A stretch of DNA of 51,479 nucleotides from a virus. Taxonomy: Duplodnaviria > Heunggongvirae > Uroviricota > Caudoviricetes. Numbering within the stretch: the first letter of the stretch is position 1; each line of letters begins with the position of its first letter. This document shows, in pieces, positions 11,730 through 15,420 of this stretch. The DNA is taken from positions 1-51,479 of the IMG/VR virus record IMGVR_UViG_3300045988_007046, one strand, 5' to 3'. Below the pieces are notes generated by a model, which saw only the letters and a program-made list of their open reading frames with translations, did not search any database and was not told the DNA's origin. Position numbers and translations under genes: made by a program.

Positions 11730-12101
11730 ATGAAAAACAGAACAAACAAAGGCCAGTTTAAAAAAGGCCAGTCTGGAAACCCATCTGGAAGACCAAAAGG
11801 CTCTCGTAACAAAAGCTCACTTGTAAAAGCTCAACTGACCATTGATAATTCTGCTGAGTTTGCTGCAAAGTTGTTTGAGGCGGTTGTTACAAGGGATGCT
11901 GCTAAGCTTGCAGAGTTCGGTTTGACGACTGACGATGTAAACCTGAAGTCGATGATGGAGGCTGGTAAAACCATCATGACTCACTCAGCAGGTGAGATGA
12001 AAGCGATTGCAGCAGACACTAAGAAGACCCCTGATAATGGTGGTCAGTCTCAGACAGATAACAAACCAACGTTCTCTGCTGTAGCGACTCTCAAAAAATA
12101 A
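11730..12101 (+). CDS. hypothetical small basic protein (possible DNA-binding)
   Basis: 123 aa; N-terminus KGQFKKGQSGNPSGRPKGSRNK is strongly basic and Gly/Pro-rich. Confidence 0.5.
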   Translation: MKNRTNKGQFKKGQSGNPSGRPKGSRNKSSLVKAQLTIDNSAEFAAKLFEAVVTRDAAKLAEFGLTTDDVNLKSMMEAGKTIMTHSAGEMKAIAADTKKTPDNGGQSQTDNKPTFSAVATLKK

Positions 12102-12182: not shown

Positions 12183-13598
12183 ATGAGCGAATTATTTAAA
12201 CATGCGCACCTTCATGCAGGTCGAACTGAAAATGGTGCTGTAAACCATACTTCATCAATGTCTGCTCTTGTAGACTTTTACAAAGCTGCTGGTTCAAGCC
12301 GTAGCAACGTAGAAATCTTACCAGACCTGTTCTACAAAGCTTTGCGTGAGGATGTTGATGTTGCAGTTCGTATTTTGCTTCATATGCGAGATGTACGAGA
12401 AGGTATGGGTGAGCGTAAAGCCTTCAGAACTGTTTTACTTCAAGCGATTGAAGACAAAGTTTTAGAGCCTACGCAGGTTCTTCGCATTATGGATAAGATT
12501 GCAGAACTTGGTCGTTTTGATGACTTCAAAATCTTCGTAGGTACTCGTTTCGAGACAGATGCCTTCAAACATCTAGAAGCAGCATTACTAGACCCTGCAA
12601 CAGCAGGTTTGGCGGCTAAGTGGTTACCACGAGTCAAACCACGTCATAAGCAGTTTGTAAAACGTTTCTGCAAGTTTGCCAACTTGAGTGAGAAAGAGTA
12701 CCGCACACTGTTGTCTGCACTATCTGATACAGTTGAGCAAAAAATCTCTGCTAATGAGTTTGGTAAGATTGACTACAGTAAGATTCCTTCACTTGCTGCT
12801 GCACGTTACCAAAAACTGTTTAACCGCAAAGATGGAGAACGCTACAAAGCTTACATCGAGTCCTTATCAAAGGGTGAGACTAAGATTAATGCTGGTGCTG
12901 TTTACCCATACGATGTAATTAAATCTGTTAAGCATGGTAATGCAGATGTTGCTAATGAGCAGTGGAAAGCACTACCAAACTGGATGGCAGAGGGTGAAAA
13001 CATCTTGTGTATGTCTGATGTTTCAAGCTCAATGTCTTGGGTGAATTTTGGTTCAATTACTGCTCTTGATATTGGTGTTTCACTTGCATTGTATGTAGCA
13101 GAACGTAATACAGGTTGCTTTAAGAATGAGTTGATGGTTTATTCAACAAACCCTCACTTCATCGAACTGAGTGGTGATTTACGAAACCGTCATCGTCAGG
13201 TGATGCGACACGTTGAATATGGCTCAACTAACTTACAAGCAGCTTTTGACCGTATTCTTGAAACAGGTAAAAGAAACAACTTGACTCAGAAAGATATGCC
13301 AAGTAAGCTTATCATCTTCTCCGATATGGAGTTCAATCAGGTTGATGGAGCTAACGGTCGTACAAACTTTGAAGCAATTCGTAGTAAGTACAAAAAAGCT
13401 GGATACGAAATGCCTCAACTGGTATTCTGGTACTTAGCAAACCGTAATGGTACTTGCGAAGTGTCTGTTAAGGATAACGGTGTAGCAATGGTATCTGGTT
13501 TTTCTCCAGCTACTTTAAAAGCTCTGCTTGGTGGTGAGAAGTTTGACCCAATCAGCGTAATGCTCAAAGCAGTAATGATTGACCGTTATATCTGGTAA
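12183..13598 (+). CDS. vWA-domain protein, possibly Ro60/TROVE-like RNA-binding protein
   Basis: 471 aa; MIDAS-like D-x-S-x-S (MSDVSSSMSW) followed by vWA-like strands (ELMVYS, GSTNLQAAF, KLIIFSDMEF, GVAMVSGFS) whose order resembles the Ro60 C-terminal vWA domain; helical N-terminal region. Confidence 0.4.
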   Translation: MSELFKHAHLHAGRTENGAVNHTSSMSALVDFYKAAGSSRSNVEILPDLFYKALREDVDVAVRILLHMRDVREGMGERKAFRTVLLQAIEDKVLEPTQVLRIMDKIAELGRFDDFKIFVGTRFETDAFKHLEAALLDPATAGLAAKWLPRVKPRHKQFVKRFCKFANLSEKEYRTLLSALSDTVEQKISANEFGKIDYSKIPSLAAARYQKLFNRKDGERYKAYIESLSKGETKINAGAVYPYDVIKSVKHGNADVANEQWKALPNWMAEGENILCMSDVSSSMSWVNFGSITALDIGVSLALYVAERNTGCFKNELMVYSTNPHFIELSGDLRNRHRQVMRHVEYGSTNLQAAFDRILETGKRNNLTQKDMPSKLIIFSDMEFNQVDGANGRTNFEAIRSKYKKAGYEMPQLVFWYLANRNGTCEVSVKDNGVAMVSGFSPATLKALLGGEKFDPISVMLKAVMIDRYIW

Positions 13599-13609: not shown

Positions 13610-13646
13610 AAGGGTATTGACAATGTGTTTGATGCCCTTTAATATG
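13610..13646 (+). promoter_or_regulatory. sigma70-like promoter candidate
   Basis: AAAAAGGGTATTGACA with TTGACA at 13617-13622, 17-nt spacer, TAATAT at 13640-13645. Confidence 0.5.
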
Positions 13647-13699
13647 TTCTACATAGAAACGAAACGAGAGCTTTTCTAAGATACTGAAAAATATTTTAA

Positions 13700-13738
13700 A
13701 AAAGTTCTTGACAACCACTAAAAAATAATGTTAAAGTG
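13700..13738 (+). promoter_or_regulatory. sigma70-like promoter candidate upstream of the tRNA array
   Basis: AAAAAGTTCTTGACA with TTGACA at 13708-13713, TAAAGT at 13732-13737. Confidence 0.45.
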
Positions 13739-13930: not shown

Positions 13931-14004
13931 GACAGAAGACCAATTACAGCAAACTTAATCTACTCATCTGACACGAAATCGGACAAAGAAGATATTTGGT
14001 CTGG
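13931..14004 (+). ncRNA. structured spacer element E1 (CAGAAGACC...GGTCTGG family)
   Basis: 5' GACAGAAGACCAA pairs with 3' TTGGTCTGG; conserved internal ACAGCAA. Confidence 0.35.
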
Positions 14005-14015
14005 TCATTGAGAAT

Positions 14016-14092: not shown

Positions 14093-14097
14093 ATTTT

Positions 14098-14158
14098 GCA
14101 GAAGACCGTATTCAGCAACAAAATACTTTTTGCGGATAAAAGAAAAAACACGGTCTGG
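14098..14158 (+). ncRNA. structured spacer element E2 (CAGAAGACC...GGTCTGG family)
   Basis: 5' GCAGAAGACCGT pairs with 3' ACGGTCTGG; internal TTCAGCAA. Confidence 0.35.
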
Positions 14159-14169
14159 CAATGTATTAA

Positions 14170-14348: not shown

Positions 14349-14426
14349 GGTTATGTAGTTTAATTTGGTTAAAATACTCCCCTGTCACGGGAGATGATGA
14401 GGGTTCAAATCCCTTCGTAACCGCCA
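14349..14426 (+). tRNA. tRNA-Asp (anticodon GTC)
   Basis: Acceptor GGTTATG/CGTAACC, anticodon arm CTCCC-CTGTCAC-GGGAG, T-loop TTCAAAT, CCA encoded. Confidence 0.75.
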
Positions 14427-14432
14427 ATTTTG

Positions 14433-14478
14433 AGAGGGCTATTTAGCCCCTCCCTTAAAGAGTTCTTACGAGTATTCT
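14433..14478 (+). promoter_or_regulatory. paired hairpins in a tRNA spacer (possible processing or termination signal)
   Basis: GGGCT-ATTT-AGCCC hairpin followed by CCCTTAAAGA...TCTTTAAGGG inverted repeat enclosing GTTCTTACGAG. Confidence 0.4.
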
Positions 14479-14487
14479 TTAAGGGAG

Positions 14488-14561
14488 CAGAAGACCAAAT
14501 ACAGCAAGAATGTATGAAATTTCAAGCCAATTTAATTTTGAAAATTTAAAACTTGGTCTGG
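14488..14561 (+). ncRNA. structured spacer element E3 (CAGAAGACC...GGTCTGG family)
   Basis: 5' CAGAAGACCAAA pairs with 3' ACTTGGTCTGG; internal ACAGCAA. Confidence 0.35.
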
Positions 14562-14574
14562 CTCAACAAATTTA

Positions 14575-14706
14575 CAGAAGACCGTTTACAGCAAAACTTA
14601 AACAATCTATTTCTCCGGTAAAGAAAAGGCGAAGGTTCGATTCCTTCACTCGGCAGATGTCGAGTTGGTGTAATGGTAGCACTTAAGATGATAAACAACG
14701 GTCTGG
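14575..14706 (+). ncRNA. structured element E4: CAGAAGACC...GGTCTGG closing helix enclosing a tRNA-like module (Y-RNA/YrlA-like candidate)
   Basis: Closing helix AGACCGTT (14579-14586) with AACGGTCT; inside: perfect T-arm GAAGG-TTCGATT-CCTTC (14631-14647), 7-bp hairpin ACTCGGC-AGAT-GTCGAGT (14648-14665), D-arm-like GTGT-AATGGTA-GCAC (14668-14682). Confidence 0.4.
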
Positions 14707-14707
14707 T

Positions 14708-14851
14708 AATTATCTTTGTAGATAAGTTATTAAGCTTACCTGTGAGTATGCGACCACAAAGGGTGAAAGGGTAAATTCTAGATTTAAACCCAAAAAGGCA
14801 CATCGCTACAGACCTTAAGCAAGTCTGGGTAGCTTATCTACAAAGATAATT
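14708..14851 (+). repeat. 19-bp perfect inverted repeat enclosing a ~106-nt segment
   Basis: AATTATCTTTGTAGATAAG (14708-14726) is the exact reverse complement of CTTATCTACAAAGATAATT (14833-14851); interior holds a CAGAC...GTCTG hairpin. Confidence 0.6.
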
Positions 14852-14855
14852 TAAT

Positions 14856-14931
14856 GGAAGTGTAGCAGAATGGTGATGCGGCAGACTTTTAATCTGACAG
14901 GCGATGGGTTCGAATCCCTCCACTTCTACCA
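14856..14931 (+). tRNA. tRNA-Lys (anticodon TTT)
   Basis: Acceptor GGAAGTG/CACTTCT with G1-U72, anticodon loop CTTTTAA, T-region ATGGG-TTCGAAT-CCCTC (only 3 clean T-stem pairs), CCA encoded. Confidence 0.6.
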
Positions 14932-15338: not shown

Positions 15339-15420
15339 CGGGGCGTATCTCAGCGGTCTTCTAAACCGCCGTTAACCGAGTAAGTGGAGTATGCGGGTTC
15401 GAGTCCTGCCGCCTCGACCA
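15339..15420 (+). ncRNA. atypical tRNA-like element (possible aberrant tRNA-Arg TCT or pseudo-tRNA)
   Basis: Good acceptor CGGGGCG/CGCCTCG, T-arm GCGGG-TTCGAGT-CCTGC and CCA, but the only anticodon-like hairpin GCGGT-CTTCTAA-ACCGC lies 7 nt after the acceptor (no room for a D-arm) and is followed by a 23-nt extra region. Confidence 0.3.

What the first reader, a model, noticed from the sequence alone, without database searches (positions are those of the whole stretch)
14575..14706. tRNA-like module (T-arm, closed acceptor-like hairpin, D-arm) inside a helix-closed element
Read directly: a perfect T-arm GAAGG-TTCGATT-CCTTC (14631-14647), then a 7-bp hairpin ACTCGGC-AGAT-GTCGAGT (14648-14665) that mimics an acceptor stem closed by a tetraloop, then a D-arm-like GTGT-AATGGTA-GCAC (14668-14682). 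The whole is enclosed by the AGACCGTT/AACGGTCT helix. No 5' acceptor strand exists upstream, so this is not a normal tRNA gene. It looks like a tRNA mimic that could be a substrate for tRNA-modifying or processing enzymes.
Basis: seen in the sequence. Interest (0 to 1): 0.8.

Follow-up and report, generated by a model that had tools for sequence, protein, structure and literature searches.

The report
Phage Y-RNA-like tRNA mimic
This is a small structured RNA gene in a Felix O1-like phage that imitates a tRNA and probably partners with a neighbouring Ro60-shaped protein, revealing a widespread but undescribed phage cousin of the Ro60/Y-RNA particle.

The parts
12183..13598 (+). Gene for a 471-aa Ro60-fold protein (Pfam DUF2828 + DUF7788; helical N-terminal part plus vWA domain with a MIDAS motif), the proposed protein partner
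13617..13737 (+). Two sigma-70-like promoter matches (TTGACA-17-TAATAT at 13617-13645; TTGACA-18-TAAAGT at 13708-13737) between the protein gene and the first tRNA
   Evidence: No terminator-like site on the + strand between 13640 and 15100. Consensus matches only; co-transcription of the RNAs with the tRNAs is inferred.
13931..14012 (+). Shell-only element E1, between tRNA-Glu and tRNA-Met
   Evidence: Shell model R2, built without Ounavirinae: 26.6 bits, E 0.005. Motif CAGAAGACCAATTACAGCAA with a GGTCTGG partner.
14097..14166 (+). Shell-only element E2, between tRNA-Met and tRNA-Asn
   Evidence: R2: 33.9 bits, E 0.00015.
14486..14569 (+). Shell-only element E3, directly upstream of the finding; it contains an internal hairpin
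   Evidence: R2: 21.9 bits, E 0.05, the weakest of the four. Exact motif match. Invariant across three genera.
14573..14714 (+). Element E4, the finding: shell plus tRNA-like module
   Evidence: R3, a full model without Ounavirinae: 74.7 bits, E 3.7e-13. R2: 27.3 bits. R1: 96.7 bits.
14579..14594 (+). 5' strand of the shell helix (AGACCGTT, 14579-14586) followed by the conserved UACAGCAA (14587-14594)
   Evidence: C, G, C and A of CAGCA are invariant in 16 diverse elements.
14610..14626 (+). V hairpin UUUCU-CCGGUAA-AGAAA, in the position of a tRNA variable arm; its loop looks like an anticodon loop
   Evidence: Conserved in Suspvirus SUSP2 and Mooglevirus KPS64 (loop CUGGUAA) but replaced in Mooglevirus Mordin and Michonne.
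14631..14647 (+). T arm GAAGG-TTCGATT-CCTTC
   Evidence: Invariant in Ounavirinae. T stem 98% paired with compensatory changes in 21 family members.
14648..14665 (+). Closed acceptor-like stem (AS): ACTCGGC-AGAT-GTCGAGT, 7 bp
   Evidence: Compensatory changes to ACACG/CGTGT and ACCCTTC/GAAGGGT in other genera. AS 97% paired, and all 6 counted pairs change on both sides.
14666..14682 (+). U8-G9 linker and D arm GTGT-AATGGTA-GCAC (A14, G18 and G19 equivalents present)
14697..14710 (+). 3' strand of the shell helix (AACGGTCT, 14697-14704) followed by GGUAAU; GUAA (14706-14709) can pair with UUAC (14572-14575) as a lower helix
   Evidence: The lower helix covaries among the four paralogues (TGAC/GTCA, TTGC/GCAA, GAGC/GCTC, TTAC/GTAA), read.

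Best explanation
The element is a non-coding RNA of about 140 nt that works like a bacterial Y RNA of the YrlA type. It is probably transcribed with the phage tRNA array from promoters just downstream of the gene for a Ro60-shaped protein, and released by the nucleases that process the neighbouring tRNAs (inferred). Its two ends pair into a conserved 'shell': a 7-8 bp helix that starts AG and ends CU, followed on the 5' strand by UACAGCAA and on the 3' strand by GGUAAU. I propose that this shell is the docking site for the Ro60-like protein (inferred from genomic linkage). Three shorter RNAs in the same array (E1-E3) carry the same shell without the insert. They would bind the same protein, as YrlB does beside YrlA. 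The insert (V hairpin, T arm, closed acceptor stem, D arm) would fold into a tRNA-like L-shape. That shape would present the particle to proteins that recognise tRNA. These could be modification enzymes, RNase P or the CCA-adding enzyme, or an effector such as PNPase, as in the Rsr/Y RNA/PNPase machine. The RNA would thereby tether or gate the Ro-like ring (inferred by analogy). Shown here: the structure, its covariation, the family, the linkage to the gene, and the fold of the protein. Not shown: expression, binding, processing, and biological role.
For: (1) Structure under selection. The AS stem changes on both strands between genera. In 16 diverse elements aligned by MAFFT, 16 of 18 predicted pairs keep pairing through double changes. 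In 21 elements aligned to the model, the shell is 95.9% paired, the T stem 98% and the AS stem 97.3%, with 154 compensatory cells, against 33-47% paired when the partners are slid. The shell helix alone, on a plain MAFFT alignment of 17 shell-only elements, is 99.2% paired with all 7 pairs changed on both sides. (2) Non-circular membership. Model R3, built without any Ounavirinae, scores the finding 74.7 bits. Shell model R2, likewise independent, finds exactly four hits in the 51-kb window, all in the tRNA array. (3) Partner protein. The gene 975 nt upstream has a Ro60 fold over its full length and an invariant MIDAS motif. (4) Linkage. Of 75 loci whose protein is only 38-47% identical, 50 carry at least one element. 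All 76 elements are on the gene's strand, and 30 lie within 100 nt of the gene, against about 2% expected. The minus strands give no hit. (5) Same architecture in loci used in no model: L093 has gene, two shell elements, two full elements, then a 19-tRNA array. Mycobacteriophage Rumpelstiltskin has a 58.5-bit element about 100 nt after its DUF2828 'Ro-like' gene. (6) tRNA-like tertiary signal. Positions 15 and 48 are G-C (7) or A-U (5) in 12 of 16 parsed modules, and U8, A14 and the D-loop GG are always present. (7) Precedent. YrlA has the same arm order, lies within 4 kb of Ro60 on the same strand, and is modified by TruB and DusA; M. smegmatis YrlA, with a 7-bp acceptor stem, is cut by RNase P and receives CCA (PMC4201824). 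(8) Indirect expression evidence. In Listeria phage A511, three tandem shell elements follow a TTGACA promoter and end 26 nt before the DUF2828 gene gp57. A study of the related phage CKA15 reports three very abundant unannotated RNAs within 2 kb upstream of its Rsr-like gene (PMC12282133).
Against: There is no direct evidence of expression, binding or processing in this phage. The protein's relation to Ro60 is seen only at the level of fold: there is no TROVE hit in Pfam, no Ro60 hit for a 37-sequence profile against PDB sequences, and BLASTP against a phage TROVE Ro60 gives E 0.91. The canonical Ro60-binding motif GNCGAA is absent, and Rfam's YrlA model gives nothing at E<=10. In this clade the 15-48 pair is A-C or A-A, not a Levitt-type pair. 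25 of the 75 distant loci gave no hit. E3 is weak (E 0.05). E-values from these quickly calibrated models are rough, and alignment A7 was fitted to the model. The folding energy alone is not exceptional (z -1.7). I could not map the abundant Listeria phage RNAs onto the shell elements by coordinate.
Confidence: 0.75

Rival explanations
1. The shell elements are cis-acting signals rather than free RNAs. They could be operators through which the Ro-like protein regulates its own mRNA, or processing and insulator structures that organise cleavage of the long tRNA-array transcript. The tRNA-like insert would then serve as an extra RNase P entry site.
For: Many shell elements abut the gene, 22 of 76 within 50 nt. 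In A511 they lie between a promoter and the start codon. In the window they sit between tRNAs with no terminator. The neighbouring 25-bp helix at 14707-14855 looks like an RNase III-type substrate (that it is a substrate is my inference).
Against: Elements occur upstream or downstream of the gene, in tandem sets of 2-4, and up to several kb away. In the window two promoter-like sites and two tRNAs separate them from the gene. A complete tRNA-like module with covarying tertiary positions is far more than a cleavage signal needs. Canonical Y RNAs are likewise co-transcribed with rsr, so proximity does not discriminate.
Confidence: 0.1
2. The RNA is a tRNA mimic that acts on its own, for example as a decoy or sponge for host tRNA-targeting nucleases or other anti-phage factors. 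Its linkage to the Ro-like gene would then reflect shared regulation, not binding.
For: The element sits in a 25-tRNA array. Such loci are tRNA-rich in many phages. One distant locus carries an RNA ligase, an ADP-ribosylglycohydrolase and a NADAR gene nearby. That phage tRNA arrays counter host tRNA cleavage is general knowledge, not tested here.
Against: It does not explain the shell, which is the most conserved and most tightly gene-linked part and also occurs without any tRNA-like insert.
Confidence: 0.08
3. It is a circularly permuted or split tRNA gene that matures into a working tRNA-Thr(GGU). The V hairpin would be the true anticodon arm, and the ends would be joined or held together by the enclosing helix.
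For: All tRNA parts are present in permuted order. The V loop is CCGGUAA here and CUGGUAA (U33, GGU, A37) in SUSP2 and KPS64. The Rfam tRNA model aligns the V hairpin, a 4-nt linker and the T arm as anticodon arm, variable loop and T arm. One GenBank record annotates a 131-nt 'tRNA-Thr GGT' here.
Against: The V hairpin is replaced in Mordin and Michonne and is not conserved in the wider family, and it has C33 in this phage. The same shell encloses inserts with no tRNA parts. The acceptor loop AGAT lacks the CCA that this phage's tRNA genes encode. No bacterial pathway for circularising tRNA precursors is known (my knowledge).
Confidence: 0.04
4. It is a decaying remnant of two tandem tRNA genes, the 3' half of one and the 5' half of the next, with no function.
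For: Junctions of adjacent tRNA genes do mimic the T-AS-D pattern. The models give 34.5 and 29.2 bits at two such junctions in the window, and the pattern scan picks up several in other loci.
Against: The two acceptor strands are perfectly complementary and stay so through compensatory changes in three genera. The element is 95-99% conserved in about 200 phage genomes. It sits in a shell shared with hundreds of unrelated phages.
Confidence: 0.02

Closest known systems
YrlA (Y RNA-like A) with Rsr/Ro60 of Salmonella, Mycobacterium and actinobacteriophages (Chen et al. 2014, PMC4201824; Rfam RF02553)
   Same: A terminal stem formed by the two ends, enclosing V, T, closed acceptor (AS) and D stem-loops in the same order. 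Nearly invariant T and D arms with a variable, covarying AS. Covariation of positions 15 and 48 in the family. Encoded close to, and on the strand of, a ring-plus-vWA protein. Accompanied by shorter sibling RNAs that share the protein-binding end. My clade-excluded model cross-hits the ET08 YrlA at 33.9 bits through the T-AS-D part.
   Different: The partner protein is DUF2828/DUF7788, not TROVE/vWA_Ro60, with no detectable sequence similarity. The conserved end motif is a 7-bp AG...CU helix plus UNCAGCAA and G-R/U-U-A, not GNCGAAN0-1G. Rfam YrlA finds the canonical ET08 RNA (37.4 bits) but nothing here. The shell model finds nothing in the canonical locus. The element is embedded in a tRNA array. 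Host range is different: 710 phage records of enterobacteria, Vibrio, Aeromonas, Campylobacter, Listeria, Staphylococcus, Enterococcus and mycobacteria, against 357 mostly actinophage records for TROVE Ro60.
YrlB and other short Y RNAs; Yrl1/Yrl2 of Thermus phage phiLo (PMC12135203)
   Same: E1-E3, and the shell-only elements of other phages, are short stem-plus-loop RNAs next to the protein gene that share the binding end of the longer RNA. Two distant ones carry only a T arm, as reported for M. smegmatis YrlB.
   Different: phiLo Yrl RNAs carry the CGAA motif and bind a TROVE Ro60. The present ones have CAGCAA and a different protein family.
[quoted passage not shown]
   Same: A 7-bp acceptor-like stem, which Chen et al. 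consider the determinant for RNase P cleavage. In this family 4 of 13 seven-bp stems are followed by N-CCA in the loop (P about 4e-5), including the Mooglevirus orthologue of the finding (GCCAAACA).
   Different: The window's own loop is AGAT, without CCA, and other members are closed by GNRA-type loops. Opening of the hairpin may therefore be clade-specific, and it is untested.
Circularly permuted tRNA genes of the red alga Cyanidioschyzon merolae (from memory; cf. PMC4090602, listed)
   Same: The 3' half of a tRNA lies upstream of the 5' half, and the two acceptor strands are joined by a short intervening sequence.
   Different: Those genes mature through a circular intermediate made by the archaeal/eukaryal splicing endonuclease and yield a working tRNA. 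Here the break lies between the D arm and the anticodon-stem position, the ends extend into a conserved protein-binding-like shell, and the anticodon-like hairpin is not conserved.
Two-piece (permuted) tmRNA (from memory)
   Same: A permuted gene order, with the T arm and 3' acceptor strand before the 5' acceptor strand.
   Different: No tag reading frame or pseudoknots. ARAGORN finds no tmRNA, and Rfam gives no tmRNA match at E<=10.

Membership tests
YrlA / bacterial Y RNA (Chen et al. 2014; Rfam RF02553) | V, T, AS and D stem-loops in that order inside a stem formed by the 5' and 3' ends | tested here: met
   Read. The MFE fold shows the four hairpins inside the enclosing helix. The alignment to model R3 covers all arms.
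YrlA / bacterial Y RNA (Chen et al. 2014; Rfam RF02553) | Conserved 5' motif GNCGAAN0-1G (the proposed Ro60/Rsr contact) | tested here: not met
   The 5' strand reads ACAGAAGACCGUUUACAGCAA. The family consensus is AG-N5-UNCAGCAA.
YrlA / bacterial Y RNA (Chen et al. 2014; Rfam RF02553) | Match to the curated covariance model | tested here: not met
   No RF02553 or Y_RNA match in 14400-14880 at E<=10. The same library finds the canonical YrlA of phage ET08 at 37.4 bits, E 2e-5.
YrlA / bacterial Y RNA (Chen et al. 2014; Rfam RF02553) | Encoded within about 4 kb of, and on the same strand as, a Ro60 orthologue | tested here: inconclusive
   The position criterion is met: 975 nt downstream, same strand. 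However, the protein is a Ro60-fold DUF2828 protein, not a TROVE orthologue.
YrlA / bacterial Y RNA (Chen et al. 2014; Rfam RF02553) | tRNA-like tertiary contacts, with covariation of the 15-48 Levitt pair | tested here: inconclusive
   Met for the family (G-C 7, A-U 5 of 16 parsed modules). The window's element and its two Ounavirinae orthologues have A-C or A-A. U8, A14, the D-loop GG and the T loop are present.
YrlA / bacterial Y RNA (Chen et al. 2014; Rfam RF02553) | Physically bound by Ro60/Rsr; modified by TruB and DusA | not testable with these tools
   Needs immunoprecipitation and modification mapping.
Ro60 / TROVE proteins (for the neighbouring gene) | HEAT-repeat ring plus C-terminal vWA domain with a MIDAS motif (fold) | tested here: met
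Ro60 / TROVE proteins (for the neighbouring gene) | Sequence membership: Pfam TROVE PF05731 and vWA_Ro60 PF25045 | tested here: not met
   Only DUF2828 and DUF7788 match. The control protein ET08 gp220 hits TROVE and vWA_Ro60. The profile against PDB sequences finds no Ro60. BLASTP gives E 0.91.
Canonical tRNA gene | Cloverleaf with the 5' acceptor strand upstream of the D arm; detector call | tested here: not met
   No ARAGORN call. The Rfam tRNA match is partial, 22 bits against a 29-bit threshold.
Permuted tRNA gene that yields a functional tRNA | A conserved anticodon arm, and processing signals for circularisation | tested here: not met
   The anticodon-like V hairpin has C33 here and is replaced in Mordin and Michonne. 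It is not conserved in the family. No bulge-helix-bulge motif was searched for formally.
tmRNA (one- or two-piece) | tRNA-like domain plus tag reading frame and pseudoknots | tested here: not met
   ARAGORN finds none. Rfam gives no tmRNA match at E<=10.

The most novel reading that the evidence does not exclude
DUF2828/DUF7788 proteins and the CAGCAA-shell RNAs form a second Ro-like ribonucleoprotein class, carried mainly by phages, with its own RNA recognition code. Its job is tied to the phage tRNA array. The tRNA-shaped members would be matured by RNase P and 3' trimming or CCA addition into two-piece molecules with a real acceptor end. The particle would then survey, protect or repair the phage and host tRNA pool, or decoy host nucleases that cleave tRNAs, rather than simply tethering PNPase as in bacteria.
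Probability: 0.25. Interest if true: 0.8.

Novelty: new variant of a known kind. Interest (0 to 1): 0.65.

Why it matters
Ro60 and its Y RNAs are conserved from bacteria to humans, yet what the tRNA-like part of bacterial Y RNAs does is still unknown. This finding points to a parallel system that is more common in sequenced phages than the canonical one: 710 phage records against 357. It occurs in tractable and applied phages, namely Felix O1-like phages of E. coli and Salmonella, Listeria phages A511 and P100-like, Vibrio and Aeromonas T4-like phages, and Campylobacter, Staphylococcus and Enterococcus phages. It gives DUF2828/DUF7788 a testable function and a predicted RNA ligand with a defined motif. 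It also explains recurrent mis-annotations, such as over-long 'tRNAs' and small hypothetical ORFs in tRNA arrays. Finally, it offers a sequence-level candidate for the very abundant unexplained RNAs reported in a Listeria phage. If the link to the tRNA array is functional, it bears on how phages manage or defend their tRNA supply.

Tried and rejected
(1) Rfam at gathering and at E<=10 gave only ordinary tRNAs and noise at the locus. No family claims the elements in 11 distant loci. (2) Folding energy alone is not significant (z -1.7). (3) A MAFFT alignment of a length-matched subset (A4) misplaced the shell and was dropped. MAFFT alignment A3 and the CM alignment A7 both mix two registers of the D arm, so column-wise D-arm statistics (59% paired) understate it; I checked D stems sequence by sequence instead. 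(4) Sequence searches for a Ro60 link all failed: phmmer and a 37-sequence profile against PDB sequences, NCBIfam and BLASTP against a phage TROVE Ro60. Only fold comparison shows the relation. (5) A literature search for DUF2828 found five unrelated papers, mostly on plants. No paper links Felix O1-like phages to Ro or Y RNAs. The supplementary tables of Chen et al. 2014 listing their 22 phages are not held, and two Wolin reviews are not held. (6) A search for a second conserved protein neighbour found none. (7) I considered a kink-turn reading of the AGA/G internal loop and rejected it, because the unbulged strand lacks the required G-A. (8) I considered GOLLD/ROOL-type large phage RNAs for the whole 430-nt spacer and rejected that, because there is no Rfam match. 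(9) I considered two-piece tmRNA and rejected it.

Full report
WHAT IS THERE. The window is a Felix O1-like phage (Felixounavirus): the 429-nt spacer that holds the finding matches 252 phage records, most at 95-99% identity. The finding lies in a gap of a 25-tRNA array, between tRNA-Asp (ends 14426) and tRNA-Lys (starts 14856). The T arm is at 14631-14647, the 7-bp closed hairpin at 14648-14665, the D arm at 14668-14682, and the enclosing helix pairs 14579-14586 with 14697-14704. The region also contains a hairpin upstream of the T arm (14610-14626, loop CCGGUAA) and a 4-bp inner helix (14597-14600 with 14684-14687). ARAGORN calls no tRNA or tmRNA here. The Rfam tRNA model gives only a partial 22-bit match.

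IT IS UNDER SELECTION AS A STRUCTURE. In the sister genera Suspvirus and Mooglevirus the T arm, the D arm and the enclosing helix are invariant. The closed acceptor-like stem changes on both strands: ACTCGGC/GTCGAGT becomes ACACG/CGTGT or ACCCTTC/GAAGGGT.

THE ENCLOSING HELIX IS A REPEATED 'SHELL'. The motif CAGAAGACCNNNTACAGCAA occurs four times in the window, only in the tRNA array (0.27 expected). Each copy is followed by GGTCTGG. The central base pairs differ between copies but stay complementary (CCAA/TTGG or CCGT/ACGG), and so does a lower helix (TGAC/GTCA, TTGC/GCAA, GAGC/GCTC, TTAC/GTAA). Only the fourth copy, the finding, carries the tRNA-like insert.

THE RNA AND THE PROTEIN TRAVEL TOGETHER. 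I collected 75 viral loci whose protein is only 38-47% identical to the window's. A strict pattern scan found T-AS-D modules that overlap no tRNA in 11 of them, all on the gene's strand. Their flanks show the same shell. It consists of a 7-bp helix that begins AG and ends CU, with five freely varying but complementary pairs. UNCAGCAA follows on the 5' strand, an A-rich run precedes the 3' strand, and G-R/U-U-A follows it. On a plain MAFFT alignment of 17 shell-only elements the helix is 99.2% paired, all 7 pairs change on both sides, and sliding the register drops pairing to 34-44%. Covariance models found 76 elements in 50 of the 75 loci, every one on the gene's strand. 30 of the 76 lie within 100 nt of the gene, where about 2% would be expected, and the opposite strands gave no hit.

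NON-CIRCULAR TESTS ON THE WINDOW. The shell model (R2), built without any Ounavirinae sequence, finds exactly four hits in the whole window on either strand, and they are the four copies. The full model (R3), also built without Ounavirinae, scores the finding 74.7 bits (E about 4e-13). The next hits, at 34.5 and 29.2 bits, are junctions of adjacent tRNA genes, the false-positive class already noted by Chen et al..

SAME ARCHITECTURE ELSEWHERE. A 148-kb marine phage used in no model has the gene, then two shell elements, then two full elements (75.8 and 79.1 bits), then a 19-tRNA array. The protein family occurs in 710 phage records. Elements were found in several of them:
- Mycobacteriophage Rumpelstiltskin: 58.5 bits, about 100 nt after its DUF2828 'Ro-like RNA binding protein' gene, with shell-only copies on both sides.
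- Aeromonas phage Aeh1: the hit overlaps a 122-nt 'tRNA-Val' annotation.
- Yersinia phage P778: one full-length hit.
- Campylobacter phage Los1: a shell-only hit immediately upstream of the gene.
- Listeria phage A511: three tandem shell elements between a TTGACA promoter and gp57.
A multi-omics study of the related Listeria phage CKA15 reported three very abundant unannotated RNAs within 2 kb upstream of its Rsr-like gene and speculated that they are Y RNAs (PMC12282133). I could not match coordinates, so this is only indirect evidence of expression.

THE INSERT LOOKS LIKE A FOLDED tRNA. In 21 full elements the shell, T and AS helices are 96-98% paired, with 154 compensatory cells. Position 15 of the D loop and the base before the T stem are G-C (7) or A-U (5) in 12 of 16 parsed modules, which is covariation of the Levitt tertiary pair. 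U8, A14 and the D-loop GG are always present. The window's element and its two Ounavirinae orthologues are exceptions (A-C or A-A). Acceptor loops fall into types. N-CCA follows a 7-bp stem in 4 of 13 (P about 4e-5), including the Mooglevirus orthologue of the finding (GCCAAACA). Four others have GNRA-type loops. The window has AGAT. Some members have a short acceptor stem or none.

COMPARISON WITH WHAT IS KNOWN. Chen et al. 2014 defined YrlA by five features: a 5' GNCGAAN0-1G motif, nearly invariant T and D stem-loops with AS and V, location within 4 kb of Ro60 on the same strand, tRNA-like tertiary covariation, and recognition by tRNA enzymes. M. smegmatis YrlA, with a 7-bp acceptor stem, is cut by RNase P and receives CCA. 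The finding shares the anatomy and the genomic logic but fails three membership tests. The GNCGAA motif is absent. Rfam's YrlA model gives nothing at E<=10. The partner protein is not TROVE by sequence.

The controls make these negatives meaningful. Canonical Ro60 occurs in 357 phage records, nearly all from actinobacterial hosts; I found them with human Ro60 written from memory as a probe, and the hits validate themselves at E down to 1e-113. In phage ET08 the protein is TROVE + vWA_Ro60. There Rfam YrlA hits at 37.4 bits, about 190 nt upstream of the gene. My model R3 cross-hits that RNA at 33.9 bits through the T-AS-D part only. The shell model finds nothing in that locus. The two proteins show no sequence similarity. 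The annotators' label 'Ro-like RNA binding protein' therefore covers two different protein families, each with its own RNA end motif.

MECHANISM. The two promoter-like sites, and the absence of a + strand terminator, suggest that E1-E4 are transcribed with the tRNAs (inferred). By analogy with Ro60/Y RNA, the shell would dock on the Ro-like protein, and the tRNA-shaped insert would recruit tRNA-recognising factors or an effector, or gate the ring. None of this is shown. The main rivals are a cis-regulatory or processing role for the shell, a protein-independent tRNA decoy, a functional permuted tRNA-Thr, and a decayed tRNA pair. The last two are poorly supported.

NOVELTY. I found no description of this RNA family, its motif, or its link to DUF2828, nor any connection between Felix O1-like phages and Ro or Y RNAs. 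There is partial prior knowledge. Some annotators call the protein Ro-like. One paper notes a Ro60-like structural homologue in a Vibrio jumbo phage. A survey mentions ROT/TROVE proteins in some jumbo phages. The Listeria phage paper speculates about Y RNAs. I could not see the list of 22 phages in Chen et al.'s supplement, so some of their phage hits might belong to this class. I rate the finding as a new variant of a known kind.

Noticed in passing
window 14707-14855: Directly after the finding lies another helix-closed element: a closing helix of about 25 bp (GGTAATTATCTTTGTAGATAAG... / ...CTTATCTACAAAGATAATT) that keeps pairing through four double changes in Suspvirus and Mooglevirus. Inside it is a small hairpin ACAGACC-TTAAGCAA-GTCTGG (AAACC-CTTTAGCAA-GGTTT in the other genera) that resembles a miniature shell. 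Its 5' strand overlaps the 3' flank of the finding, so the two structures may compete. No Rfam match.
   Followed up: partly
window 14432-14486: Two hairpins between tRNA-Asp and shell element E3 (GAGAGGGC...GCCCCTC, and CCCTTAAAGA...TCTTTAAGGG with a 15-nt loop) are almost invariant across three genera. Their function is unknown, and the first is not followed by a T-run.
   Followed up: no
L001 401-531 (phage REP6); L090 8184-8305 (phage Aeh1); window 14510-14686 and 14546-14803: Public records mis-annotate this RNA family. REP6 has a 131-nt 'tRNA-Thr GGT' across E3 and E4. Aeh1 has a 122-nt 'tRNA-Val' overlapping a family member. Several Felixounavirus records call 'hypothetical protein' on the small ORFs that cross the spacer.
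   Followed up: partly
L037 8690-8801; L031 5841-5952; L020 1526-1644; L037 5783-5907; L014 3260-3390: The insert inside the shell is modular. Some elements hold only a T arm, some have T and D arms with no acceptor hairpin between them, and one has a 3-bp acceptor stem.
   Followed up: partly
window 15339-15417: Rfam calls a tRNA here (31.7 bits) that ARAGORN misses. A RefSeq relative annotates a tRNA-Arg in the corresponding gap of the array, between tRNA-Ile and tRNA-Ser.
   Followed up: no
GU169904.1 (Staphylococcus phage SA1), record positions 58619-59046: A 147-kb Staphylococcus phage record contains this Felix O1-type spacer at 96.5% identity. That suggests a chimeric or contaminated assembly.
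   Followed up: no
L087 (Listeria phage A511) and PMC12282133: The Rsr-like protein of the related phage CKA15 (CKA15_055, 56.8 kDa, likely the gp57 counterpart) was detected in purified virions with 57% sequence coverage. The Ro-like protein may therefore be packaged and delivered with the DNA.
   Followed up: no
L028 11696-11922; L093 4231-4305: Incidental features in distant loci: a group I intron (Rfam, 71.5 bits) and an ARAGORN-called suppressor-type tRNA with anticodon CTA.
   Followed up: no
window 11730-12101: A DUF5681 protein gene sits directly upstream of the Ro-like gene. I did not test whether this pairing is conserved outside the Ounavirinae.
   Followed up: no
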